A DNA stretch of 32,000 nucleotides from positions 696,353 through 728,352 of the forward strand of contig NZ_JAAIVF010000002.1 of assembly GCF_029589495.1 (NCBI RefSeq). The letters run 5' to 3'. The stretch comes from Speluncibacter jeojiensis (GTDB lineage Bacteria; Actinomycetota; Actinomycetes; Mycobacteriales; Mycobacteriaceae). This document shows positions 9,804-24,353 of this stretch, piece by piece. The position numbers were made by a program, and so were the translations under genes. Below the pieces are notes generated by a model. The model worked only from the letters and a program-made list of their open reading frames with translations. It ran no database searches and was not told the origin of the DNA. The stretch's first letter is position 1, and each line of letters begins with the position of its first letter.

Positions 9804-12611
<2,808 letters not shown>

Positions 12612-12677: not shown

Positions 12678-13655
12678 ATGACCACCGCACTCGCACCCCG
12701 CGAAGAACTCATCTGCACCTCCGTCGAATGGGCCTGCCGCGCCCCGTCGCTGCACAACAGTCAGCCGTGGCGGTTCGTCTACGACAGCGCCGGCCTGCAC
12801 CTGTACGTCGACGAGCGCCGCCTGCTCGACACGACCGATCCGACCGGGCGGCAGGCGATCATCAGTTGCGGTGCGGCACTGCACCATCTGCGGATCGCCT
12901 TGCCGCACTTCGGCTTGGCACCGACGGTGCGACGCTTCCCCGACCCGGCGGATCCGTCGTTGCTGGCCGACATCACGTTCGATCGCGTCGAGGACCTCGA
13001 TCCCCGCGACGCCGCACTGTTCCTCGCAATCGAACACCGCCGCACCGACCGCCGCCCGTTCCGCCGGCCCAGCGAGGTCGCGCTGCACGACCTCGATCGC
13101 GCCGCGCGGCGGCACGGCGCCACCATGACCCTGCTCGGCCCCGAGGCACGCGACGAGCTGGCCCGTGCCTCGCGGACCAGCGCCGCACTTCACCGGTACG
13201 ACCCCGCCTACCGGGCCGAACTGCTGTGGTGGAGCGGGCACAGCCGGGACGACGGGATCCCCCGCAACCTGCTGCCCGCGGCGGTCGACGGCCCTCCCGC
13301 CGTCGAGATCGCCCGCACCTTCCCTGCCGGCACCCTCGAGGCGGACGGTGACGAAGACCAGGCCGCACTGGGGGTGCTCAGCACCTGCACGGACACGCCG
13401 CGGGACTGGCTGCACGTCGGCGAAGCACTGTCGTCGGTGCTGCTCGAGGCCACCGTCCTGCACCTCGCCACCTGCCCACTCACCCATGTGACCGAAGTCC
13501 CGGCCAGCCGCGAGATCGTGCGGGCCACGACCGCGGTGGCCGGGTCGCCCTGCCGGTACCCGCAGGTGGCCATCCGGTTCGGCGGTCCTCGGCACCCGCC
13601 GCTGGTCGGGCAGACCGCCCGGCGGTCGGTCGAGGACGTGTACCGGGTGCGGTGA
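12678..13655 (+). CDS. acg: Acg-family FMN-binding (nitroreductase-fold) oxidoreductase, 325 aa
   Basis: N-terminal motif RAPSLHNSQPWRF and the two-lobed nitroreductase-like length and layout match the Acg/Rv2032, Rv3127 and Rv3131 family, which belongs to the DosR regulon in mycobacteria. There is no obvious SD, so the transcript may be leaderless. Confidence 0.8.
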   Translation: MTTALAPREELICTSVEWACRAPSLHNSQPWRFVYDSAGLHLYVDERRLLDTTDPTGRQAIISCGAALHHLRIALPHFGLAPTVRRFPDPADPSLLADITFDRVEDLDPRDAALFLAIEHRRTDRRPFRRPSEVALHDLDRAARRHGATMTLLGPEARDELARASRTSAALHRYDPAYRAELLWWSGHSRDDGIPRNLLPAAVDGPPAVEIARTFPAGTLEADGDEDQAALGVLSTCTDTPRDWLHVGEALSSVLLEATVLHLATCPLTHVTEVPASREIVRATTAVAGSPCRYPQVAIRFGGPRHPPLVGQTARRSVEDVYRVR

Positions 13656-13677: not shown

Positions 13678-14661
13678 TCAGCTCTCGTCGTGCTTCTCCC
13701 AGAAGCGCGCCCGGAGGCGGTAGCGGATCCCTTCGTCCAGGTCGTACACCTGCAGCGCGTCGGAGGCGTCGATCAGCAGGGCGCGGTCGATGTCGGAGGG
13801 GATCGACGGCCGCGCGCTCTGGAGCTGCTGCTGCTCCTCGGACGACGCGCTCGTCCGGATCGACGACAGCACCCGCATCACGACCTCGTCGAGCAACCGA
13901 TCCTGTTCCTCCTGCTCCTGGTACTCGGGCAGCAGGTGCGCCGGAGAGCCGGTCGACGAGCTGTACGCCAGCACGCTCGTCGGAGGCGGTGCTGTCGGAC
14001 AGTGCGCGGCCGCGGCGGCGAGGTCGCGCGGGGTCGGGCGCACGGCGGCCGCGGCCGTCGGCAGAGGCGGCTCAGGCGCCTGCACCGGTGCGGCCGGCTC
14101 GCGCACCGGCGGGTGCTCGACCTTGATCACCGCACCGTCGACGGCCGCGCCGTCGACCGTGTCGATCTCGTCGGCCGCCCGGATCAGGTACCGGCTCACG
14201 CCGTGCGGCCTGCCGTCGGCGTTGGGCACCGCGAGCAGCACGACCTGCACCCCGTGCACCTGTGCCTCTTCGACCGCCTCGGTCAGGTCGTCGTCGCCGG
14301 AGACCAGGAAAAACACGTCGGACGCGCTGTTGCGGGCGTGCGCGACGAGGTCGAGCCCGATGCGCAGGTCGACGCCCTTCTGTTTGCCGTCGACGCCGAA
14401 CCGGCCGAGCCGCAGCTTGACCTTGGGGATCTCGCCGATCCGCTCCTGCTGCGCGTCGGGTACCCCGTTCTTCGCCGAGTCGTACCAGTGCACCCGCAGC
14501 ACCGGCAGGCCCGACCGCGCCTCGGCCGCGTCGACCAACGAGCTGATCAGCTTCGCGTACTCGGGATGGATCCCGCTGCGCAGCGAGGTGCCGGTGACGC
14601 GGGTCGCGGCGGACGCGAGCAGGTATCCGACATCGATGTACAGGGAGCAGGTCGACCGCAT
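13678..14661 (-). CDS. NYN (LabA-like PIN-fold) domain protein with Pro/Ala-rich linker and acidic C-terminal domain, 327 aa
   Basis: The N-terminal roughly 170 aa carry NYN/LabA features: LYIDVGYLL, KGVDLRIGLDLV, VFFLVSGDDDLTEAVEEAQ. A low-complexity PA-rich linker follows (about residues 175-235), then a C-terminal module of about 90 aa that I do not recognise. Confidence 0.8.
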   Translation of the reverse strand: MRSTCSLYIDVGYLLASAATRVTGTSLRSGIHPEYAKLISSLVDAAEARSGLPVLRVHWYDSAKNGVPDAQQERIGEIPKVKLRLGRFGVDGKQKGVDLRIGLDLVAHARNSASDVFFLVSGDDDLTEAVEEAQVHGVQVVLLAVPNADGRPHGVSRYLIRAADEIDTVDGAAVDGAVIKVEHPPVREPAAPVQAPEPPLPTAAAAVRPTPRDLAAAAAHCPTAPPPTSVLAYSSSTGSPAHLLPEYQEQEEQDRLLDEVVMRVLSSIRTSASSEEQQQLQSARPSIPSDIDRALLIDASDALQVYDLDEGIRYRLRARFWEKHDES

Positions 14662-14743: not shown

Positions 14744-15379
14744 TCAGTGCCGCCGCCCGAGCCGTGTCGCCATCACCGCCGCCTGGGTTCGGCGCTCCAC
14801 CCCGAGCTTCGCCAGCAGTCGCGACACGTAGTTCTTGACGGTCTTCTCCGCCAGGTGCATCCGCCCGGCGATCTGCCGGTTGGTCAGTCCCTCACCGAGC
14901 AGGTCGAGCAGCCGCTGCTCCTGCGGGCTCAGTTTCGCCAGCGCTCCGCGCTGCTCGTGCTCGCCACGCACCTCCGCCATGAGCGCGGCCGTCGCGCGCT
15001 CGTCGAGCAGCGACCCGCCCGCCCCGACCTCGCGGATCGCCTTCGTCAGGTCGAGTCCGCGAATGTCCTTGATCACGTATCCGGCCGCGCCGGCGAGGAT
15101 CGCGTCGACCATGGCCTGCTCATCGGTGTACGACGTGAGGATCAGGCACTGCAATTGCGGCATGCGCGAGCGCAGTTCGCGGCACAGTTCCACCCCGCTG
15201 CCGTCGGGCAGCCGCACGTCGAGGACCGCGACATCCGGCCGCAACGCCGGGATCCGCGCCAGCGCATGCGAACAGTTGCCGGCCTCGCCGACCACCGTCA
15301 GCTCCTCGTCGGCCTCGATCAGGTCGGTCAGCCCCCGCCGCACCACCTCGTGATCGTCGACCAGAAAGACGGTGTACAC
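14744..15379 (-). CDS. dosR: DosR/DevR-type NarL-family response regulator, 211 aa
   Basis: GTG start at 15379. The sequence is near-collinear with my recollection of M. tuberculosis DevR: [30 protein letters not shown] (phospho-Asp), [46 protein letters not shown]. Confidence 0.9.
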
Positions 15380-15385
15380 CCGCCG

Positions 15386-16396
15386 CTAACTGCTTCGGGC
15401 GGCGCGGATGGTCTCCTTGAGCGAACCCAGCGTCGCCAGCACCGAGGTTGGCTCGTACCCGCAGTGCGCCATGCAGTTGGCGCAGCGCGGATCGCGGCCG
15501 CGACCGTACTTCTCCCAGTCGGTGGTCTCGATCAGCTCTTTGTAGGTCTTCACGTAGCCGTCGGCCATCAGGTAGCACGGCTTCTGCCAGCCCAACAGCG
15601 AGTACGACGGCACTCCCCATGCGGTGCAGTCGAAGTCGACCTTGCCTTCGAGAAAGTCGAGGAACAGCGGAGAATGGTTCAGGCGCCACTTCTTGCGCCG
15701 GCCGTCGGCGAACGTCTTGCGGAACAGCTCGCGCGTCTCCTGCACGCCGAGGAAGTGCTCCTGGTCGGGCGCCTTCTCGTAGGCGTACGCCGGCGAGACC
15801 ATCATCTGGTCGACCTGCAGGTCATCGTTGAGGAAGTCCAGCACGTCGATGACCGACTGCGGGGTGTCGGTGTTGAACACCGTCGTGTTGGTGGTGACCC
15901 GGAAGCCGCGGCTCTTCAGCTCGCGCACCGCCTCGACCACCTCGTCGAACACGCCCTCCTTGCAGACGGACGCGTCGTGCCGCTCCTGCAGACCGTCCAC
16001 GTGCACGGCGAACGCGAAGTAGCGGGACGGCTTGAAGTCGAAGCGCTCCAGCCGTTTCCGCAGCAACACCCCGTTGGTGCACAGGAAGACGAACTTCTTG
16101 CGCTTGACCAACTCGGCGACGATCTTGTCGATCTCCGGGTGCATCAGCGGCTCGCCGCCGGCGATGGACACCATCGGCGCGCCGGACTCCTCGATCGCGG
16201 CCACGGCCTGCTCCACGGGCATCCGCTGTTTGAGCAGATGGGCCGGCTGCTGGATCTTGCCGCAGCCCGCGCATGCGAGGTTGCACGCGAACAGCGGTTC
16301 CAATTCGACGATCAGCGGAAACTTCTTGTTGCCCCGAACCTTCTGCTCGAGCAGGTACCGAGCGATCCTCATGCTTTGGTACAACGGCATACTCAT
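15386..16396 (-). CDS. hpnH: Adenosyl-hopene transferase HpnH (radical SAM), 336 aa
   Basis: Radical-SAM cluster motif FACNLACAGCGKI is present. The rest of the sequence matches the HpnH family along its length (VSIAGGEPLMHPEI, FLCTNGVLL, CTAWGVPSYSLLGWQKPCYLM, RCANCMAHCGYEP). The ATG at 16396 overlaps the upstream stop; ATG at 16390 is an alternative start. Confidence 0.92.
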   Translation of the reverse strand: MSMPLYQSMRIARYLLEQKVRGNKKFPLIVELEPLFACNLACAGCGKIQQPAHLLKQRMPVEQAVAAIEESGAPMVSIAGGEPLMHPEIDKIVAELVKRKKFVFLCTNGVLLRKRLERFDFKPSRYFAFAVHVDGLQERHDASVCKEGVFDEVVEAVRELKSRGFRVTTNTTVFNTDTPQSVIDVLDFLNDDLQVDQMMVSPAYAYEKAPDQEHFLGVQETRELFRKTFADGRRKKWRLNHSPLFLDFLEGKVDFDCTAWGVPSYSLLGWQKPCYLMADGYVKTYKELIETTDWEKYGRGRDPRCANCMAHCGYEPTSVLATLGSLKETIRAARSS

Positions 16397-17907
16397 TGCT
16401 GACGAACCTCCTTCGGCAATGTGAAATTGATTTTCTCCGTGGTTGTTTCGTGTGTGTCGATCCGTATCCTCCCCAGTGCCCCGAGGGCCGCGACGATCTC
16501 GTCGACCACCTCCGCGGGCGCGGAGGCGCCGGCGGAGATCCCGATCGTGCGGGCGCGCGCGAGCCAGTCCAGCGAGACCTGTCCGGCGTCGTCGACGAGG
16601 TGCGCCTCGGTGCCCTCACGCTGCGCGACCTCCACCAGCCGCCGCGAGTTCGACGAGTTCTCCGATCCGGCGACGAGCACCAGGTCCGACTGCCGAGCCA
16701 CCGCCCGCACGGCGCGCTGGCGGTTGGTGGTGGCGTAGCAGATGTCGTCGGAATCCGGCCCGCGCAGACTCGGAAAGCGTTCGCGCAGAACGTTTACCAC
16801 ATCGGCTGCCTCGTCCGCGGCCAAGGTGGTCTGCATCAGGTAGGCGACCCGTTCCGGGTCGCGTACCTGCACCCGCTCGGCGTCGTGCACGCTCTGCACG
16901 AGCACCGTGTCGGCGGGTTCCTCACCGAGGGTGCCCTCGACCTCCTCGTGCCCGGCGTGGCCGATCAGCAACACCGTGTGACCGTCCCGTACGAACCGCT
17001 TCGCCTCGGTGTGCACCTTCGCCACCAGCGGGCAGGTGGCGTCGACGACGTCCAGCCCGCGCAGCGCCGCATCGGCGCGCACCGCGGGCGCCACCCCGTG
17101 CGCGGAGAAGACGACCGTGGCACCGTCGGGCACCTCGGCGAGCTCGTCGACGAACACCGCTCCCCTGCCCTCGAGCCCGTGCACCACCCGCGAGTTGTGC
17201 ACGATCTGCTTGCGTACGTACACCGGCGCCTGCCGGGTCTGCAGCAGGCTGTCGACGATCCGGATCGCACGCTCGACCCCGGCGCAGAACGAGCGCGGCG
17301 AGGCCATCACCAACCGGCGGTCCCCGGTCGCGGCTGCCCACCGGCTCAGCACCGTCCCGACGGTACGCAGCGTACGCAGCGCGGTCAGCCCGCCGGACAC
17401 CGTCGACGGGGACCACAGGGGACGGTCCGGGGTGTCGGAGACGACGCGCAGCACCGCCGTCGGCGCCCCGTCGGCCAGTTGCAGCAGCACTCCGGACTCC
17501 ATGTCGACCGCGATCGACCCGTCCGCGGCCAGCGCGGCGTGTTCGCCGCGCCCGACCATGTGCCCGCTCTGCCGGATCGGACCCAGGTGCGCCGTCAGCC
17601 CGGCCTCGCGCAGCGCGGTGACCAGCAGCGGCGCGGCCGCCAGCCGATGCGTGCCCGCGGACGCGCGGACCTCGTCGGCGACCACCACCTCCCCGACGCC
17701 GATGCCGTCGACGAGCGCGCCGGCGACGCCGGTGATCGCCAGTGCCGCAGGGCTGTTCGCGATCAGTGCCGACCGGACCCGATCACCCCGGCGGGCGCGA
17801 ACCCCGGCCCGCACCAGCGTCGCACCGGCCAGTCCCGGCCGCGTCGCAGCGGCCTCGACACCCGTCGCGGTGGCGACCACGAGGGAGCGCGGGCCGGCGG
17901 TCGTCAT
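16393..17907 (-). CDS. ispH: Apparent fusion protein: N-terminal HpnG-like nucleosidase/phosphorylase domain + C-terminal IspH (HMBPP reductase), 504 aa
   Basis: Residues 1-195 look like a PNP/MTA-nucleosidase fold (ITGVAGAL, IAVDMESG). Residues from about 200 are a full-length IspH with all three Fe-S cysteines (SFCAGVERAI, DATCPLVAKVH, DDICYATTNRQ) and SENSSNSRRL. A single frame runs from the ATG at 17907 without a stop. Confidence 0.85.
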   Translation of the reverse strand: MTTAGPRSLVVATATGVEAAATRPGLAGATLVRAGVRARRGDRVRSALIANSPAALAITGVAGALVDGIGVGEVVVADEVRASAGTHRLAAAPLLVTALREAGLTAHLGPIRQSGHMVGRGEHAALAADGSIAVDMESGVLLQLADGAPTAVLRVVSDTPDRPLWSPSTVSGGLTALRTLRTVGTVLSRWAAATGDRRLVMASPRSFCAGVERAIRIVDSLLQTRQAPVYVRKQIVHNSRVVHGLEGRGAVFVDELAEVPDGATVVFSAHGVAPAVRADAALRGLDVVDATCPLVAKVHTEAKRFVRDGHTVLLIGHAGHEEVEGTLGEEPADTVLVQSVHDAERVQVRDPERVAYLMQTTLAADEAADVVNVLRERFPSLRGPDSDDICYATTNRQRAVRAVARQSDLVLVAGSENSSNSRRLVEVAQREGTEAHLVDDAGQVSLDWLARARTIGISAGASAPAEVVDEIVAALGALGRIRIDTHETTTEKINFTLPKEVRQQ

Positions 17908-19811
17908 CGGTCACCGACGGAGAGGAACCTGCCCAGCGCGCTGAGCGGGAAGACCAGGCGGTACAGGTGGTAGTTGATGTAGAAGTCGCCGGGGAAGCCG
18001 GTGCCGGTGAACAGGGACTCGTCCCAGCCGCCGTCCTCACGTTGGGTGCGCAGCAGCCAGCCGACGCCGGCCTGCACGACCACTCCGCGCTCCCCCGCTG
18101 CCAACAGGGCCAGCAATGCCCACGCGGTCTGCGACGCGGTCGACTCGCCGCGGCCGATCCAGCTCCGATCGGTGTACGAGCGCAGGTCCTCGCCCCAACC
18201 GCCGTCCTCGTTCTGATGCTGCTCGAGCCAGCGCACCGCCCGCCGGATCGCGGGGTGGGTGGTCGGCACGTCGGCGTCGACGAGCGCCGGCACCACCGCG
18301 CCGGTCCCGTACACGTGGTTCGCGCCCCACCGCCCGAACCAGGATCCGTCCTGCTCCTGATTGTCGAGCAGCCACTGCACGCCGCGCCGGGTGACCGCGG
18401 CGTCGGCGTCGTCGCCGGCCGCGAGCATCTCGACGATGTGGCCGGTCACGTCCGCCGAGGGCGGGTCGATCACCGCGCCGAAGTCGCAGAACGGCAACTT
18501 CTCGCAGAGCGTGCGGGTGTTGTCGGCGTCGAAGGCGCCCCAGCCCCCGTCGCGGCACTGCATGCCCTCGATCCAGGCGGTGGCGCGGGCGACCGCGGAG
18601 TCGATGCGTGCGGGGTCGGGGTGGCGCAGCCGGCGCAGGGCCAGCACCACCTCGGCAGTGTCGTCGGTGTCCGCGTAGTTGACGTTGGCGAACTCGAACG
18701 CCCAACCGGACGGCGCGAGGTCGGGCCGGCGCACCGACCAGTCGCCCTTGACGCTGATCTCCTGGTCCAGCAGCCAGTTCCCGGCCCGGATCAGTGCCGG
18801 GTCGTCGTCGGGTGTGCCGGCGTCCAGCAGTGCGGTCAGCGCGAGCCCGGTGTCCCACACCGGCGACTGGCACGCCTCCAGACGGCGTACCCAGCCGTGC
18901 GGGGTCTGTTCCCGGATGGTGAAGTCGTCCAGTCCGGCCATCGCCTTGTTCTGGACCGGGTGATCCATGTCGTACCCGCGCAGATACAGCGCGATGATCG
19001 AGTACACCCACGGCGGCTGGATGCCGCCCCAACCGCCGTCCGCCTCCTGCCGGGCCAGGATCCACTTCTCGGCCCGCCGCAGCGACAGCCGGCGCAGCGG
19101 CGTCCTCGGGATCTTCTCGAGCAGGTGCAGCACCTTGTCCAACCGCTGGAAGGCGCCCGCCCAGCTGCGCCACGACGCCAGCGGCGGTTCCGGTGTGCCG
19201 GTGCGCAGTTCACGCACGCTCACGCCGAGGTCGCGGCGCGGCTGCATCGTCCACACCACGGTCAGCGGGACCACGGTCTGGCGCGCCCAGCAGGCCCAGT
19301 CGTAGATGTTGAGCGGGAACCACTTCGGCAGCAGCGCGATCTCCGGCGGCAGCACCGGCAGTCGGTCCCAGGACCATTCCCCGAACAGCGCCAGCCAGAT
19401 CCGGGTGAACACCCGGGTGGCCTCGATGCCGCCGTGCGCCAGCACGTACTCGCGGGCCCGGGCCATGTGCGCCGCGTCCGGGTCGTCGCCGACCATCTTG
19501 AGCACCGTGTAGGCCTCGACGGTGGTGGACAGGTCCGCCGGACCGCCACGGAAGTTCGCCCAGGTGCCGTCCTGCCGCTGCTGCGACCGGATCCACCGGG
19601 CCGACTCCTCGCTGCGCTGCGCGTCCCGGATGCCGAGGAACTGCCGCAGCATCAGATCCTCGGCGTCCATCGTCACGTTGGTCTCGAGTTCGCCCTTCCA
19701 CCACCCCTCGGGGTGCTGCAGCCCGAGCAGATGGGTCCGGGCCCGTTCGGTGGCCTCGCGGACCGCGTCGCCGAAGACGACATCGTCGGTGATCTCGCGC
19801 AGTTCGGTCAT
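17904..19811 (-). CDS. shc: Squalene-hopene cyclase, 635 aa
   Basis: Catalytic DxDDTA motif (ADTDDTAEV) is present. Multiple QW repeats are visible (QEADGGWGGIQPPW, QCRDGGWGAFD, QEQDGSWFGRWG, NEDGGWGED, REDGGWDES). Confidence 0.95.
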   Translation of the reverse strand: MTELREITDDVVFGDAVREATERARTHLLGLQHPEGWWKGELETNVTMDAEDLMLRQFLGIRDAQRSEESARWIRSQQRQDGTWANFRGGPADLSTTVEAYTVLKMVGDDPDAAHMARAREYVLAHGGIEATRVFTRIWLALFGEWSWDRLPVLPPEIALLPKWFPLNIYDWACWARQTVVPLTVVWTMQPRRDLGVSVRELRTGTPEPPLASWRSWAGAFQRLDKVLHLLEKIPRTPLRRLSLRRAEKWILARQEADGGWGGIQPPWVYSIIALYLRGYDMDHPVQNKAMAGLDDFTIREQTPHGWVRRLEACQSPVWDTGLALTALLDAGTPDDDPALIRAGNWLLDQEISVKGDWSVRRPDLAPSGWAFEFANVNYADTDDTAEVVLALRRLRHPDPARIDSAVARATAWIEGMQCRDGGWGAFDADNTRTLCEKLPFCDFGAVIDPPSADVTGHIVEMLAAGDDADAAVTRRGVQWLLDNQEQDGSWFGRWGANHVYGTGAVVPALVDADVPTTHPAIRRAVRWLEQHQNEDGGWGEDLRSYTDRSWIGRGESTASQTAWALLALLAAGERGVVVQAGVGWLLRTQREDGGWDESLFTGTGFPGDFYINYHLYRLVFPLSALGRFLSVGDR

Positions 19812-20815
19812 AGGTCACGCTCCGTCATGAAAGCCGCCAATTCACGTAGGGACAGATCTATTTCCGTTGGCGCACCGACGTGTTCGAGGCAGCCCTGCGC
19901 CTGCAGCACCTGCGCACGCGCCTCACGTCGGGTCCACTCCAGCGCGCCGGACTCCGCCACCAGTCGCGCCATCTCGCGCAGCTGCGCCTCGTCGCTCGGC
20001 TCCGGTTCCGCATAGAGCAGGGCGAGTTCGGCGCCCTCCCGGGTCTGCGAGTTCAGTGCGGCGACCACTGGCACCGACTTCTTGCGGCTGCGCAGGTCCG
20101 AGAGCACCGGCTTGCCGGTGACCGCCGGCGCGCCCCAGATGCCCAGCAGGTCGTCGACCAGTTGGAAGGCCAGCCCGAGGTGCGCACCGAACGCGCGCAG
20201 CGCGGCCACCTGCTCGGGGGTCCCGCCGCCGAGCACCGCGCCGATCTCGGTGGCGCAGCGCATCAGCGCCCCAGTCTTGCCGGCCGCCATCTCCAGGCAC
20301 TGCGCCAGGTCGACCGCACCGCACTCCTCGAACTCGATGTCCTCGGCCTGGCCGACGATCAGTTCCTGCACGGCATCGGTCAGGCACCGCACGGCGGCCG
20401 GGTCGGCGGCCGGCCCGAGCACCTCGACCGCCAGCGTCAGCATCGCATCGCCGGCCAGGATCGCCGCCGGCACGCCGTACAGCTTCCACACGGTCGGCCG
20501 GTGCCTGCGCTCCTCGTCGCCGTCCATCACGTCGTCGTGGACGAGCGAGAAGTTGTGCACCAGTTCGACGGCCAGCGCACCGGGCAGCGCCACGTCCGCG
20601 TCGGCCCCGACCGCACGGGCGGACAGCAACGCCAGGGTCGGCCGCAGCGCCTTGCCGCCGCCGTCGGAGGCCGGGTGGCCCAGCTCGTCGGTCCAGCCGA
20701 GGTGGTAGCCGACGATCCGCCGCATGGACGGGTGCAGTTCGGCGACAGCCTTGCGCAGTGCGGGCTGAACCAGGGCCTGGGCCGCACCGACCGGCGCGGG
20801 CAGTGTGGTCGTCAT
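19808..20815 (-). CDS. Polyprenyl (farnesyl/geranylgeranyl) diphosphate synthase, 335 aa
   Basis: The internal ATG at 20815 overlaps the hpnE stop. First and second Asp-rich motifs are present: LVHDDVMDGD and FQLVDDLLG. The 625-aa track ORF is an out-of-gene extension through hpnE. Confidence 0.9.
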   Translation of the reverse strand: MTTTLPAPVGAAQALVQPALRKAVAELHPSMRRIVGYHLGWTDELGHPASDGGGKALRPTLALLSARAVGADADVALPGALAVELVHNFSLVHDDVMDGDEERRHRPTVWKLYGVPAAILAGDAMLTLAVEVLGPAADPAAVRCLTDAVQELIVGQAEDIEFEECGAVDLAQCLEMAAGKTGALMRCATEIGAVLGGGTPEQVAALRAFGAHLGLAFQLVDDLLGIWGAPAVTGKPVLSDLRSRKKSVPVVAALNSQTREGAELALLYAEPEPSDEAQLREMARLVAESGALEWTRREARAQVLQAQGCLEHVGAPTEIDLSLRELAAFMTERDL

Positions 20816-22185
20816 GAGGTGATGCCTCCTGCGGGATGAGTCGAGGCCGGGGTGGCGTCCTGCGCTGAGATGTCGGAGAAGACCAGGTCGGCGGCTCGGT
20901 GCCCGCTGCGCACCGCGCCCTCCATCGTGTCCGGCCAGCCGGTGGCGGTCCACGCGCCCGCCAGCGCGAGACCGGGCAGCGGGGTCTGCGCGTCGGGCCG
21001 CAACCCCGCGGTACCCGGCGCCTGACGGAAGGTGCCGCGGCGCTCGCGGGTGACGAAGAAGTGCTCGAGTTCGGCGTCGGCCGCCCCCGGCAGCAGCCGG
21101 ACCAGCTCGCGCTCGAAGATCCCGCGCAGTTCCGGCGCGGGCGTGCCGATCCACCGGTCCGCGGCGGACAGCGAGATGGTCAGGTACTGGCCGCCCTCGT
21201 ACCCGGCGGTCTCGGTGCGGTCGAAGAACCACTGCACCGGTGAGTCGAGCACCGCCGCGAACGGGAGGTCGGTGACCTTGCGCCGAAACGCCATGTGCAC
21301 GTTCATGATCGGGTTCTTGCCGAGCCGCTCCAGCTCGTCCGGGCGCAGTCCGGTCTGCGCGGGGCAGATCCGCGCCGCCGGTTCCGGCGGGGTCGCGACC
21401 ACGACGCCGTCGGCGTGCAGGTCCGCGCCGTCGAGCCGCACGACATAGCCGCGGTCCAACGGTTCGATGTGCCGCACCGCGTTGTGCGTGAGGATCCGGC
21501 CGCCGCGCGCCCGCAGATACCGCGCGGCCGGACGCACGTGCAGTTCGTCGAGCGAGACGACGGGCACGCCGATGTCCGCGGCGTCGCTGCGGTCGAGCAG
21601 CGCGGTGCGGAACACCATGACCGCCGAGGCCAGCGACGCCTCGTCCGCGTCCGTGTTGAGCGCGGCGACCGAGATCAGGTTCCACAGAGCGTCCGAGGTC
21701 GCCTGGGTCTGGCCGTGCTCGCGCAGCCAGTCGCCGAAGGTGCGGCCGTCCAGTTCCGGATCGTCGGGGGAGAGCCGGCGCAGCGCGGTCGCCGCGCGCA
21801 GCACGCGGGCGCGGTCGGCCATGCTCAGCGCACGGTAGCGGGCCAGCCCCAGCCCGAGGTGCAGCGGCGCGGGGCCGCCGGTGCGGGTCAGCGTGGTCCT
21901 GGTGCCGTCCGGCAGCAGCACCGGCATCCGGAAGCGGTTCTGCATGGCGATGCCGTCGCTCGATCCGATCCTGTCCAGCAACGCCAGATAGTCACTGTAG
22001 CAACGCATCACGACGTGCTGGCCGTTGTCGACGGTCAGCCCGTCGCGGTGAAACGAGAAGGTGGCGCCGCCGAGCCGGCCGCGCGCCTCCACCAGCGTCA
22101 CCCGCACGCCGCAGTCGGCCAGGTCGCAGGCCGCGGTCAGGCCCGCGAGCCCGCCGCCGATCACCACGACCACCTTGCCGTTCAT
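20812..22185 (-). CDS. hpnE: Hydroxysqualene dehydroxylase HpnE (FAD-dependent amine-oxidase fold), 457 aa
   Basis: The start MNGKVVVIGGGLAGLTAA carries the GxGxxG dinucleotide-binding motif, and its ATG at 22185 overlaps the hpnD stop. The gene sits between hpnD and the prenyl synthase as in known hpnCDE clusters. Confidence 0.87.
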   Translation of the reverse strand: MNGKVVVVIGGGLAGLTAACDLADCGVRVTLVEARGRLGGATFSFHRDGLTVDNGQHVVMRCYSDYLALLDRIGSSDGIAMQNRFRMPVLLPDGTRTTLTRTGGPAPLHLGLGLARYRALSMADRARVLRAATALRRLSPDDPELDGRTFGDWLREHGQTQATSDALWNLISVAALNTDADEASLASAVMVFRTALLDRSDAADIGVPVVSLDELHVRPAARYLRARGGRILTHNAVRHIEPLDRGYVVRLDGADLHADGVVVATPPEPAARICPAQTGLRPDELERLGKNPIMNVHMAFRRKVTDLPFAAVLDSPVQWFFDRTETAGYEGGQYLTISLSAADRWIGTPAPELRGIFERELVRLLPGAADAELEHFFVTRERRGTFRQAPGTAGLRPDAQTPLPGLALAGAWTATGWPDTMEGAVRSGHRAADLVFSDISAQDATPASTHPAGGITS

Positions 22186-23063
22186 CGCATCGCTCCCGCC
22201 AATGCGCCGACCGCCACCGCGACCTTCTCGCGGTCGGGCAGGCTGGTCCGTTCGGTCAGGATGGTGTGCGGCCGAATCGCCATGTGGCGCAACAACCGGT
22301 GATAGATGCCCGCCATCGCAGCACAGCACGCGCGGCTGCGGCCGTCCAGTTGCGGCAGCAGCCGCAGGCCGACCGTGTACCACTCCTCGGCGCGGGCGGC
22401 CTGGTACTCGAACAGCGCCAGCAGCCGCTCCGGCGGGTCGGACAGGTTGCCCCGATCGTCCAGATCGAGGGTGCAGCCGAACTGGGCGAGTTCGTCGGCC
22501 GGCAGGTAGATCCTGCCGTCCCGCCGGTCCTCGAGCACGTCCCGCAGGATGTTGGTCAGCTGCAGCGCGACACCCAGCGCGTCGGCGAGATCGCTGTCGC
22601 CGTCGGGGTCGTGGCTGCCGAACACGGCCAACGACAGGCGCCCGATCGACCCCGCCACACACCGGCAGTAGTGGTGCAGTTCCGCGAACGATCGGTACTG
22701 CGTGCCCAGCACATCGGCCCGGCACCCCTCGATCAGTTCGTCGAAGGCGCCCAGCGGCAGGCCCTGCGTGCGGGCCGCGTCGGCCAGTGCGGTGAGCACC
22801 GGATCCTCGGGGTGCTCGTCGAGCGCGCGCAGTTGCTGCTGGGCCAGCTCGAGGTCCACCAGCTTCTGCGGGGCGGGCAGGTCGCCGTCGCCGATGTCGT
22901 CGATGCGCCGCGCGAAGGCGTACACAGCGCTCAGGGCGGCGCGTTTGGGCGGCGGCAGCAGCCGGATTCCGTACGAGAAGTTCTTCGCCTCCGCCGCGGT
23001 GATCTGCCGACAGCGCTCATAGGCCTCCTCGACGTTGCTCGTCGTGCTCGTCGCGGCACTCAT
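22182..23063 (-). CDS. hpnD: Presqualene diphosphate synthase HpnD (squalene/phytoene synthase family), 293 aa
   Basis: SQS/PSY motifs are present: YAFARRIDDIGD and NILRDVLEDRRDGRIYLPADEL. The ATG at 23063 overlaps the hpnC stop. Confidence 0.87.
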   Translation of the reverse strand: MSAATSTTSNVEEAYERCRQITAAEAKNFSYGIRLLPPPKRAALSAVYAFARRIDDIGDGDLPAPQKLVDLELAQQQLRALDEHPEDPVLTALADAARTQGLPLGAFDELIEGCRADVLGTQYRSFAELHHYCRCVAGSIGRLSLAVFGSHDPDGDSDLADALGVALQLTNILRDVLEDRRDGRIYLPADELAQFGCTLDLDDRGNLSDPPERLLALFEYQAARAEEWYTVGLRLLPQLDGRSRACCAAMAGIYHRLLRHMAIRPHTILTERTSLPDREKVAVAVGALAGAMR

Positions 23064-23956
23064 CGCCTCCCCCTCCACAGACCCAGCGCCAGCGTCGCGG
23101 TGCGGCGCCTGCCCGGCCTGGGATCGCGTCCCAACACGTCGAATTCCGCGGCGGCGAGGGCCTCGGCGGTCGCCAGGCCGCCCGCGACATAGCCGGCGAC
23201 GGCGACCTTGGCGAAGCCCTGCAGCGATGCGACCAGCGCGGTGCCCTCGTCCAGCAGGCGGACCGCGCGCTGCACCTCGAACCCGACCAGCGCCCGCACG
23301 CCGCGGGTCGCGGCCGGCGCGAGCAGGTCCGCCTCGTCGACGCGGAAGCGCATCAGGTCCTCGGTGGGCAGGTAGATCCGCCCGGCCGTCGCGTCCTCGC
23401 CGACGTCCTGCGCGTGTTCGAGCAGCTGCAACGCCGTGCACACCCGGTCGGAGAGTGCGATCCGCGCGGGGGTCGCGGCGCCGAAGATGCCGAGTACCAG
23501 CTCGCCGACCGGATCGGCGGACAGTGCGCAGTAGGAACGCAGGTTCGCGTACGTCGCGTATCGGGTGACCACCTGGTCCTGACGGTTCGCCTGGATCAGC
23601 CGGTCGAAGGGCCCGCGGGGCAGATCGCACTCGCGGATCGTGGCGGAGAGCTCACGGTAGGGCGACTCGGGGGTCAGCCGCCCGGAGTAGATGCGGTCGA
23701 GCTGGTGGGCGGCCTGGTCGAGCAGGGCCATGCGGTTGCCGGGCGCCTCGTCGCCGATGTCGTCGACGGTGCGCGCGAACCCGTACAGCGCGGTCAGGTG
23801 GCGCCGGTGTGCGCGCGGGAGCAGAACCGACGCGACGGGGAAGTTCTCGTTGCGCGCCTTGATCCGCAGCCCCTCATCACCGGGCTGCTCGCGCGGCGAC
23901 GGGGACCGGTCGGCGTCCCGCGCCACGAAAATCGATCGACCAGTTGTGCCGGCCAA
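23060..23956 (-). CDS. hpnC: Hydroxysqualene/squalene synthase HpnC (squalene/phytoene synthase family), about 298 aa
   Basis: Motifs: ENFPVAS, YGFARTVDDIGDE, and HAQDVGEDATAGRIYLPTEDL. I prefer the TTG at 23956, which follows GGAGGAGGGG (23968-23959). The track start is a TTG at 24010 without an RBS, so the start is uncertain. Confidence 0.8.
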   Translation of the reverse strand: MAGTTGRSIFVARDADRSPSPREQPGDEGLRIKARNENFPVASVLLPRAHRRHLTALYGFARTVDDIGDEAPGNRMALLDQAAHQLDRIYSGRLTPESPYRELSATIRECDLPRGPFDRLIQANRQDQVVTRYATYANLRSYCALSADPVGELVLGIFGAATPARIALSDRVCTALQLLEHAQDVGEDATAGRIYLPTEDLMRFRVDEADLLAPAATRGVRALVGFEVQRAVRLLDEGTALVASLQGFAKVAVAGYVAGGLATAEALAAAEFDVLGRDPRPGRRRTATLALGLWRGRR

Positions 23957-24353
23957 TACCCCTCCTCCGGCTGTGGTGTCGGGTGCTGGTGCTGATGTTG
24001 CACTTCTCAACCGCTCGGGATGGCAGGTACGACGTTACGTCGCCCCGCTGGGCGTGTTGTCGGAATCGAGAACATCGCAAGCGGTCCGAAATTGCATGAT
24101 CGAGATGGGCTGTCGTCCAGTTACACACCGGCCGTGGCCATTTCAACCGGCCGACCGTTTACGCCGAAACCCAGGTCATCGCCTATACGAGAATCGAAAA
24201 GCGCGGCGACATAACACTATTGATACCGTGAGTCACATATTGCCGGATATTCGCGACGTATTGGCTTGCTGTCCAACAGAACCGTCTCACGTCGAACACC
24301 GGTGACCATGTTCGTGCATGGTCATTTGCGGGTAACGCGCGGACAATACGTTC

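What the first reader, a model, noticed from the sequence alone, without database searches (positions are those of the whole stretch)
16393..17907. Single ORF fusing an HpnG-like nucleosidase domain to a complete IspH (HMBPP reductase)
One uninterrupted 504-codon frame carries a PNP/MTA-nucleosidase-like domain at about residues 1-195 (IAVDMESG motif). This is the family of HpnG, which converts adenosylhopane to ribosylhopane. It is followed directly by a full IspH with all three [4Fe-4S] cysteine motifs. MEP-pathway paralogs inside hopanoid clusters are known, for example dxs and ispG in the Streptomyces coelicolor cluster. A covalent fusion of the last MEP enzyme to a late side-chain-tailoring enzyme is unusual, because it joins the first and last parts of the pathway in one polypeptide. 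An in-frame ATG at 17305-17307 (MASPRSFCAGV) sits exactly at the domain boundary, so a separate IspH could also be translated internally.
Basis: partly seen in the sequence, partly recalled or inferred. Interest (0 to 1): 0.6.

Follow-up and report, generated by a model that had tools for sequence, protein, structure and literature searches.

The report
HpnG–IspH fusion in hopanoid operon
One 504-residue protein in this actinobacterial hopanoid-lipid operon joins the adenine-removing side-chain enzyme HpnG to a complete second copy of the isoprenoid enzyme IspH. The fusion is real, but it is the usual arrangement in Actinomycetota, where databases label it only "IspH".

Summary
Residues 1-195 form a small MTA-nucleosidase-fold domain whose best family match is HpnG. 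Residues 196-504 are a canonical IspH with all cluster and substrate residues. ATGA stop/start overlaps join the gene to shc upstream and hpnH downstream.

The fusion is not an artefact. Homologues 55-90% identical align across the junction without gaps. Both halves are under purifying selection, and the catalytic residues of both are invariant.

It is not unusual. Of the 80 best species-representative loci found with the N-domain, 68 carry the same fusion, nearly all between shc and hpnH (Pseudonocardiaceae, Frankia, Micromonosporaceae, Streptosporangiaceae, Thermoleophilia, Acidimicrobiia). Rao et al. (2015) listed it for Frankia as a "UDP/PNP phosphorylase-IspH" hybrid. This scan has noted it in at least eight other genomes.

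The internal ATG is specific to this strain: 74 of 80 orthologues have a CTN leucine codon there.

All 13 fusion-bearing genomes checked also hold a separate housekeeping IspH.

Most likely this is a bifunctional protein with two independent activities: extra IPP/DMAPP supply, and adenosylhopane to ribosylhopane.

Practical point: the HpnG model (TIGR03468) misses these proteins, and this genome's only matching database entry starts at Leu180, so the HpnG half goes unannotated.

The parts
16393..17907 (-). hpnG-ispH fusion gene: 504 codons plus a TGA stop.
   Evidence: ORF list and translation. Two-domain Pfam and NCBIfam hits. Full-length homologues.
17323..17907 (-). N-terminal HpnG-like, MTA-nucleosidase-fold domain, residues 1-195. 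Candidate catalytic residues are E18 (17854-17856), E137 (17497-17499), R154 (17446-17448) and D158 (17434-17436).
   Evidence: PNP_UDP_1 and TIGR03468 are the best hits. A profile of the domain hits MTA/SAH nucleosidases in the PDB at E=1.6e-15, with the DMES and RxxxD motifs aligned. Foldseek matches MTAN structures at TM 0.65-0.70. These residues are invariant in 41 fused sequences and in 17 mixed fused and stand-alone sequences. dN/dS is 0.22.
16396..17322 (-). IspH (HMBPP reductase) domain, residues 196-504. The [4Fe-4S] cysteines are C208 (17284-17286), C292 (17032-17034) and C390 (16738-16740).
   Evidence: LYTB 298.5 bits, TIGR00216 299 bits. 50% identical to E. coli IspH, with H41, H74, H124, E126, T167, S225, S226, N227 and S269 equivalents all present. 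Foldseek to 3szu gives TM 0.92. dN/dS is 0.095.
17305..17307 (-). In-frame ATG (Met201) at the domain boundary, preceded by in-frame TTG and GTG codons. Not conserved.
   Evidence: Sequence. Codon census in 80 fused orthologues: 74 CTN-Leu, 2 ATG.
17368..17370 (-). CTG (Leu180). The only 100%-identical entry in the protein collection (325 aa) starts here, leaving the HpnG half uncalled.
   Evidence: P0005; its sequence; codon.
17904..19811 (-). Squalene-hopene cyclase (shc). Its TGA stop overlaps the fusion's ATG (ATGA at 17904-17907).
   Evidence: Pfam SQHop_cyclase_N and _C; junction sequence.
15386..16396 (-). hpnH (radical SAM plus DUF3463, adenosylhopane synthase). Its ATG overlaps the fusion's TGA (ATGA at 16393-16396).
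   Evidence: Pfam; junction sequence.
19808..24010 (-). Upstream part of the operon: two SQS_PSY genes (hpnC/hpnD type), an amine-oxidase gene (hpnE type) and a polyprenyl synthase gene. The listed ORFs are over-extended at their 5' ends.
   Evidence: Pfam hits.

Best explanation
The gene encodes one bifunctional polypeptide made as part of a translationally coupled hopanoid operon (hpnC/D/E, prenyl synthase, shc, hpnG-ispH, hpnH). The C-terminal 309 residues are an ordinary, catalytically complete HMBPP reductase. It is an accessory second IspH that raises IPP/DMAPP supply whenever the operon is on; the genome keeps a separate housekeeping IspH. The N-terminal 195 residues are the actinobacterial form of HpnG. 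This is a trimmed MTA-nucleosidase-type hydrolase that removes adenine from adenosylhopane, the HpnH product, to give ribosylhopane. The two activities are probably chemically independent. The fusion most likely fixes co-expression and stoichiometry, and may stabilise the small nucleosidase domain. Shown here: the domain identities, conserved catalytic residues, synteny, purifying selection, the paralogue relationship and wide distribution. Inferred: the substrates, and the absence of channelling.
For: - Domain hits.
- The IspH active site matches E. coli residue for residue, and the fold matches at TM 0.92.
- The nucleosidase domain keeps the counterparts of MTAN E12, E174, R193 and D197, invariant in every fused and stand-alone relative aligned.
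- The fused gene, or a stand-alone homologue of the N-domain (39-41% identity), occupies the same slot between shc and hpnH in nearly all related loci. This includes 10 of 10 genomes of a genus with 7-10 Mb genomes, i.e. the Streptomyces-type arrangement.
- Knock-outs of hpnG accumulate adenosylhopane (review PMC13459092). S. coelicolor orf14 was tied to the side-chain pathway (PMC10301674 citing Liu et al.).
- No other HpnG candidate exists in the genome. The only other PNP-like gene is a housekeeping nucleosidase over the NF004168 cut-off.
- The own genome and 12 of 12 other fusion-bearing genomes checked also carry a solo IspH.
- In the tree, solo housekeeping IspHs form their own well-supported group that follows taxonomy. 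Fused IspH domains lie on the other side.
- dN/dS is 0.22 for the N-domain and 0.095 for IspH against the nearest relative.
- The AlphaFold2 model has pLDDT 86 and pTM 0.84. The last helix of the nucleosidase domain runs straight into the first IspH strand.
Against: - No biochemical or expression data exist for any member.
- The N-domain scores far below the curated HpnG cut-off (57-61 against 187 bits), so the assignment rests on best hit, synteny and motifs.
- The equivalence of E18 to MTAN Glu12 comes from its position in the predicted secondary structure, not from a printed alignment.
- A high pTM and a rigid junction could mean the domains do interact functionally, which 'independent activities' would understate.
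- Raw reads and RNA data could not be examined.
Confidence: 0.8

Rival explanations
1. IspH is also, or mainly, translated separately from the internal start region (TTG199-GTG200-ATG201), so the cell makes a free 304-aa IspH. The long form would then be minor or would serve only as HpnG.
For: Three consecutive potential start codons sit at the boundary, with a GGGGA 12 nt upstream of the ATG. The only matching database entry for this genome already starts internally, at CTG Leu180.
Against: Met201 is Leu (CTN) in 74 of 80 fused orthologues and ATG in only 2. The spacing of the G-rich stretch is poor. The junction is a continuous helix-to-strand element with invariant W190 and R197. The ATGA coupling at both ends argues for one translated unit. 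Gene callers on the two closest contigs called the full 504- and 505-aa product.
Confidence: 0.08
2. The N-domain is a general 5'-deoxyadenosine/MTA/SAH nucleosidase that clears inhibitory by-products of the radical-SAM enzyme HpnH. It would not be an adenosylhopane nucleosidase.
For: The closest solved structures and catalytic motifs are those of MTA/SAH nucleosidases. The domain is below the HpnG model's cut-off.
Against: HpnG is the top NCBIfam hit for the domain and for its stand-alone syntenic homologues. The genome already has a dedicated nucleosidase over the NF004168 cut-off. HpnH consumes the 5'-deoxyadenosyl radical into its product, and hpnG mutants accumulate adenosylhopane. The strict shc-X-hpnH position holds across classes.
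Confidence: 0.08
3. The fusion reflects real functional coupling or new chemistry. For example, the Fe-S domain might act on a hopanoid intermediate (the unassigned ribosylhopane-to-bacteriohopanetetrol step), or might pass electrons to HpnH.
For: The fusion is old and kept across several classes. The junction is rigid and pTM is 0.84. The enzyme for ribosylhopane reduction is still unassigned (PMC5462960; PMC13459092 proposes a non-enzymatic step).
Against: Every diphosphate- and substrate-binding residue of E. coli IspH is retained. That fits HMBPP as substrate, not a C35 lipid. Solo IspHs nest inside the fused clade, and stand-alone HpnGs occupy the same operon slot, so each half works without the other. 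Forms that lost most of the IspH part still keep the HpnG part.
Confidence: 0.04
4. An assembly or sequencing error (a missed stop or a frameshift) merged two adjacent genes.
For: None found. Reads could not be checked.
Against: The same single frame occurs in 68 independent species-representative genomes, in two Logan contigs and in more than 100 protein clusters. There is no indel at the junction. GC3 is about 0.9 throughout the frame.
Confidence: 0.01

Closest known systems
'UDP/PNP phosphorylase-IspH' hybrid of Frankia sp. (QA3, EUN1f, EAN1pec), listed in Rao et al. 2015, Chem Sci (PMC4746011)
   Same: Same two-domain order: an N-terminal PNP_UDP-superfamily domain and a C-terminal IspH. 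In the IspH-domain tree, the fused IspH domains of three Frankia loci form the group next to the window's copy and the Pseudonocardiaceae copies.
   Different: The paper treated it as a curiosity confined to one genus, possibly a random event. It did not connect it to hopanoids or HpnG. Here it is shown to be phylum-wide and fixed between shc and hpnH.
Stand-alone actinobacterial HpnG between shc and hpnH (Streptomyces coelicolor orf14 type; Liu et al. 2014, cited in PMC10301674)
   Same: Same operon slot. 39-41% identity over residues 5-190. The same invariant E, D-M-E-S, R and D motifs and the C-terminal helix with Trp. It is also below the TIGR03468 cut-off, at 72-93 bits.
   Different: It has no IspH domain. 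From my own knowledge, the Streptomyces cluster carries ispG and dxs paralogues instead.
Proteobacterial HpnG (TIGR03468, hopanoid-associated phosphorylase; defined genetically in Methylobacterium, Rhodopseudomonas and Burkholderia)
   Same: Best-scoring family. Same fold superfamily and the same presumed step, adenosylhopane to ribosylhopane.
   Different: Only 57-61 bits against a cut-off of 187. The match covers model positions 4-162 of 212, so this is a shorter, divergent form. In proteobacteria hpnG and ispH are separate genes even when both lie in the cluster.
E. coli IspH/LytB (PDB 3KE8, 3SZU)
   Same: 50% identity, TM 0.92, all three Cys ligands and all HMBPP-binding residues.
   Different: This is an accessory paralogue carrying a 195-residue N-terminal enzyme domain. 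A separate housekeeping copy exists.
IspH-RPS1 and IspH-UbiA 'Rosetta stone' fusions (Rao et al. 2015)
   Same: IspH fused to another functional module, conserved over many genomes.
   Different: In those fusions the partner is C-terminal and IspH is the organism's only copy. Here the partner is N-terminal, the partner's pathway consumes IspH's products, and the fused copy is additional.

Membership tests
IspH/LytB HMBPP reductase (PF02401, TIGR00216) | Score over the curated cut-offs of the family models | tested here: met
   PF02401 298.5 bits against 24.5. TIGR00216 299.2 against 187.85. NF002190 398.7 against 389. The narrower equivalogs NF002189 and NF002188 fall just short, at 426 against 444 and 407 against 420.
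IspH/LytB HMBPP reductase (PF02401, TIGR00216) | Three conserved Cys ligands of the [4Fe-4S] cluster (E. coli C12, C96, C197) | tested here: met
   C208, C292 and C390 align to them and are invariant in 41 homologues.
IspH/LytB HMBPP reductase (PF02401, TIGR00216) | Substrate and diphosphate pocket (H41, H74, H124, E126, T167, S225, S226, N227, S269) | tested here: met
   H237, H270, H320, E322, T360, S418, S419, N420 and S462 are aligned and conserved.
IspH/LytB HMBPP reductase (PF02401, TIGR00216) | Trefoil three-domain IspH fold | tested here: met
   Foldseek to 3szu, 3ke8 and 3f7t gives TM(target) 0.92 and rmsd 2.2 Å, on a model with pLDDT 86.
IspH/LytB HMBPP reductase (PF02401, TIGR00216) | Converts HMBPP to IPP and DMAPP | not testable with these tools
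   Needs an anaerobic enzyme assay or complementation.
HpnG, hopanoid-associated phosphorylase/nucleosidase (TIGR03468) | Score over the curated cut-off of TIGR03468 (187.1 bits) | tested here: not met
   57.4 bits for the whole protein and 61.1 bits for the domain alone. It is still the best NCBIfam family. Stand-alone syntenic actinobacterial homologues also fail, at 72-93 bits.
HpnG, hopanoid-associated phosphorylase/nucleosidase (TIGR03468) | PNP/MTAN-superfamily fold with catalytic acid and water-activating residues | tested here: met
   PF01048 27.9 bits against 25.1. PDB profile hits to MTAN at E=1.6e-15, with DMES and R-x3-D aligned. Foldseek TM 0.65-0.70. E18, E137, R154 and D158 are invariant.
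HpnG, hopanoid-associated phosphorylase/nucleosidase (TIGR03468) | Encoded in the hopanoid cluster next to shc and hpnH | tested here: met
   ATGA-coupled to both genes in the window. The same slot is used in nearly all of the 80 related loci.
HpnG, hopanoid-associated phosphorylase/nucleosidase (TIGR03468) | Loss causes adenosylhopane accumulation; the enzyme releases adenine from adenosylhopane | not testable with these tools
   Known only for stand-alone HpnG/orf14 from the literature.
Housekeeping MTA/SAH nucleosidase (MtnN; TIGR01704, NF004079) | Score over the family cut-off | tested here: not met
   NF004079 20.8-24.5 bits against 169. A different gene in the genome meets the NF004168 nucleosidase cut-off, at 243.7 against 129.
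PNP_UDP-IspH fusion architecture (Rao et al. 2015, Frankia) | N-terminal PF01048 domain and C-terminal PF02401 domain in one polypeptide of about 500 aa | tested here: met
   The Frankia members fall in the same IspH clade.

The most novel reading that the evidence does not exclude
The conserved, rigid fusion is not only a co-expression device. The IspH-type Fe-S domain would cooperate physically with the nucleosidase domain or with HpnG's neighbours. It could reduce a hopanoid side-chain intermediate (the unassigned ribosylhopane-to-bacteriohopanetetrol step). Alternatively it could act as a redox or scaffold partner of the radical-SAM enzyme HpnH, so that the MEP enzyme fold has gained a second role in Actinomycetota.
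Probability: 0.05. Interest if true: 0.7.

Novelty: new member of a known kind. Interest (0 to 1): 0.3.

Why it matters
The main value is for annotation and for interpreting hopanoid biomarkers. These proteins are named only "IspH", and the HpnG model's cut-off excludes actinobacterial HpnG. As a result, genome surveys can conclude that Actinomycetota lack the enzyme after HpnH, as stated in bioRxiv 10.1101/2025.07.29.667474. In fact the enzyme sits in the N-terminal 195 residues of a "second IspH". In this genome the only matching database entry even discards that half. Recognising the fusion restores a complete route to ribosylhopane and bacteriohopanepolyols for many actinobacterial lineages. 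It also gives a natural Rosetta-stone link between precursor supply and side-chain tailoring. It does not point to new chemistry.

Tried and rejected
- **Word-indexed protein search with the N-domain alone.** It returned only 23 hits, mostly fragments of fusions. The wider picture came from the genome searches instead.
- **Locus search with a broad N-domain alignment (A2).** A narrower alignment (A3) worked.
- **Liu et al. 2014 (PMC4245026) on S. coelicolor orf14.** The paper is not held. The point is cited through reviews and my own knowledge.
- **Literature searches for a described HpnG-IspH fusion**. They found only the Frankia listing in Rao et al. 2015.
- **Conserved internal start.** Rejected from the codon census.
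- **Assembly artefact.** Rejected from cross-genome conservation.
- **Idea that the fused IspH replaces the housekeeping enzyme.** Rejected: 13 of 13 fusion-bearing genomes keep a solo copy.
- **Inter-domain contacts.** Model coordinates and PAE cannot be read, so the domain interface was not analysed beyond pTM and secondary structure.
Full report
**1. Observation**

The 504-codon ORF is real but lies on the minus strand, at 16393-17907 including the TGA stop. Its translation carries the SIAVDMESG motif at residues 131-139. From residue 196 on it is a complete IspH.
- Pfam places PNP_UDP_1 at residues 31-161 (27.9 bits, cut-off 25.1) and LYTB at 200-475 (298.5 bits).
- NCBIfam gives TIGR00216 IspH at 299 bits (cut-off 188). 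For the N-terminal half the best family is TIGR03468 HpnG, at 57 bits, far under its cut-off of 187.
- GC3 is about 0.9 in frame in both halves.

**2. Context**

On the same strand, in order of transcription, the window carries:
- two squalene/phytoene-synthase genes,
- an amine-oxidase (HpnE-type) gene,
- a polyprenyl synthase,
- squalene-hopene cyclase,
- the fusion gene,
- the radical-SAM/DUF3463 gene hpnH,
- a LuxR-type response regulator.

The fusion's ATG overlaps the shc stop, and its TGA overlaps the hpnH ATG, each as ATGA. The three proteins are therefore made from one message and are probably translationally coupled.

**3. The fusion is not an artefact**

- A search of the protein collection returned more than 100 clusters of about 500 aa with both Pfam domains, at 57-90% identity.
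- Forty-one of them align through the junction with no indel.
- On the two closest contigs (90% and 72% identity), independent gene callers called 504- and 505-aa products with the same 4-nt overlaps.
- Against the 90% relative, dN/dS is 0.22 for residues 1-195 and 0.095 for residues 196-504. Both halves are under purifying selection.

**4. The IspH half**

- It is 50% identical to E. coli IspH.
- The alignment places C208, C292 and C390 on C12, C96 and C197.
- It places H237, H270, H320, E322, T360, S418, S419, N420 and S462 on the substrate and diphosphate pocket. Almost all of these are invariant in the family.
- The AlphaFold2 model (pLDDT 86, pTM 0.84) superposes on 3szu and 3ke8 at TM 0.92.

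This is a canonical HMBPP reductase. The retained diphosphate pocket argues against a lipid substrate.

**5. The N-terminal half**

- A profile of fused and stand-alone relatives hits MTA/SAH nucleosidases in the PDB at E=1.6e-15. D-M-E-S aligns to the (V)EME motif, and R154-x3-D158 aligns to the R-x-x-S-D motif that holds the catalytic Asp.
- Foldseek finds the same structures at TM 0.65-0.70.
- E18, E137, R154 and D158 are invariant in all 41 fused proteins, and in a mixed set of 17 fused and stand-alone proteins. From my knowledge of E. coli MTAN, they correspond to E12, E174, R193 and D197. The E18 equivalence is inferred from its place at the start of helix 1.
- The domain is shorter than MTAN and lacks several loops.
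- The motif pattern is that of a hydrolase. This agrees with ribosylhopane, not a phosphoribosyl product, being the known intermediate.

**6. Why HpnG**

- In every related locus examined, the slot between shc and hpnH holds either this fusion or a stand-alone protein of about 190-220 aa that is 39-41% identical to the N-domain.
- The stand-alone form occurs in 10 of 10 genomes of one genus with 7-10 Mb genomes. This is the arrangement known from Streptomyces coelicolor (shc-orf14-hpnH). There orf14 belongs to the side-chain pathway, and hpnG knock-outs elsewhere accumulate adenosylhopane.
- These stand-alone proteins also fail the TIGR03468 cut-off, at 72-93 bits. The model is simply too narrow for the phylum.
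- The only other PNP-like gene in this genome is a housekeeping nucleosidase over the NF004168 cut-off.

**7. How common the fusion is**

- A pattern scan of one genome per species, using an N-domain alignment, gave 157 relatives. Of the best 80 loci, 68 are in-frame fusions and 12 are N-domain only.
- Named hosts of the fusion include Prauserella, Amycolatopsis, Pseudonocardia, Nonomuraea, Microtetraspora, Frankia, Micromonospora, Plantactinospora, Dactylosporangium, Asanoa, Actinopolymorpha, Intrasporangium and Jatrophihabitans, plus MAGs of Thermoleophilaceae, Solirubrobacterales and Acidimicrobiales.
- Rao et al. 2015 (PMC4746011) already listed a 'UDP/PNP phosphorylase-IspH' fusion in three Frankia strains. 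They regarded it as possibly random and made no hopanoid link. Five literature searches found no characterisation.
- Earlier notes of this scan record the same fusion in at least eight other genomes, with the same conclusions. I reached mine from my own tests.

**8. Paralogy**

- The genome has a second, solo IspH on another contig.
- So do all seven fusion-bearing relatives in the same order and five fusion-bearing genomes of other classes.
- A maximum-likelihood tree of 103 IspH domains separates the solo housekeeping copies from a side holding all 80 fused domains plus 5 nested solo copies. One of the five was seen next to another prenyl synthase gene (L014). The housekeeping group has SH-aLRT 99, tracks taxonomy, and the window's copy in it is 91% identical to same-family genomes.
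- The fused IspH therefore belongs to an accessory 'IspH2' lineage.

**9. Internal start**

- At the Met201 column, 74 of 80 fused orthologues have CTN-Leu and only 2 have ATG.
- The G-rich stretch upstream is 12 nt away.
- The junction is a continuous helix (168-192) leading into the first IspH strand (197-203), with invariant W190 and R197.
- A conserved separately translated IspH is not supported. Strain-specific leaky initiation cannot be excluded.

**10. Mechanism and verdict**

The most likely reading (about 0.8) is one bifunctional protein with two independent activities.
- The IspH half raises IPP/DMAPP supply in step with hopanoid synthesis. From my own knowledge, dxs and ispG paralogues play this part in the Streptomyces cluster.
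- The HpnG half hydrolyses adenine from adenosylhopane made by the next gene's product.

Stand-alone HpnGs, nested solo IspHs and decayed forms that keep only the HpnG part show that neither half needs the other. This argues against obligatory coupling.

The finding is correct but ordinary for the phylum. Its value is for annotation. Databases name these proteins only 'IspH'. This genome's only matching database entry starts at CTG Leu180 and drops the HpnG half. TIGRFAM-based surveys consequently report that Actinomycetota lack HpnG.

Noticed in passing
window 16393-17370 (-): The only 100%-identical entry in the protein collection is a 325-aa product that starts at a CTG codon (Leu180). The roughly 540 nt that encode the HpnG-like domain therefore have no matching product in that collection.
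   Followed up: yes
P0129 (Saccharomonospora piscinae, 223 aa); L068:2501-3211; L104:2501-3466: These are 'stand-alone' HpnG-like genes that still end with the last residues of IspH, or carry only a C-terminal stub of it. They look like fusions that lost most of the IspH domain by internal deletion, which suggests some solo HpnGs descend from the fusion.
   Followed up: partly
window 15386-19811 versus L028 (Prauserella) and L010/L012 (same-family genomes): The window's SHC, fusion and HpnH are closer to Pseudonocardiaceae (76%, 66% and 82% identity) than to the two same-family genomes that have the operon (64%, 55% and 70-73%). Only 2 of 36 same-family genomes have the fusion. The housekeeping IspH, by contrast, is 91% identical within the family. 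This hints at horizontal acquisition of the operon; tree support for the placement is modest.
   Followed up: partly
window 14744-15379 (-): A response regulator (receiver plus GerE/LuxR domains) starts 6 nt after the hpnH stop on the same strand, so it appears to be co-transcribed with the hopanoid operon. Another first-reader note reads it as DosR-like.
   Followed up: no
L129:3177-4562: In the 72%-identical relative, an Aminotran_3 gene lies next to hpnH; it could be an HpnO or orf18-type aminotransferase for aminobacteriohopanetriol. No such gene was seen among the window ORFs scanned.
   Followed up: no
G000:C1:159523-159987 (L004:1390-1980, -): A separate 196-aa nucleosidase scores over the NF004168 cut-off (243.7 bits). 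It is the genome's housekeeping MTAN-like enzyme, next to a deazaflavin-dependent nitroreductase-family gene.
   Followed up: yes
PDB entry 9ql0 (fold search result): A 2026 structure of E. coli IspH 'crystallized in the presence of adenosine hemisulfate' ranks among the top fold matches. I did not examine whether IspH binds adenine nucleosides.
   Followed up: no
window 9804-12611 (+), 12678-13655 (+), 13678-14661 (-): Downstream of the operon lie an aconitase gene, a nitroreductase-family gene and an NYN-domain gene. They are not part of the finding.
   Followed up: no
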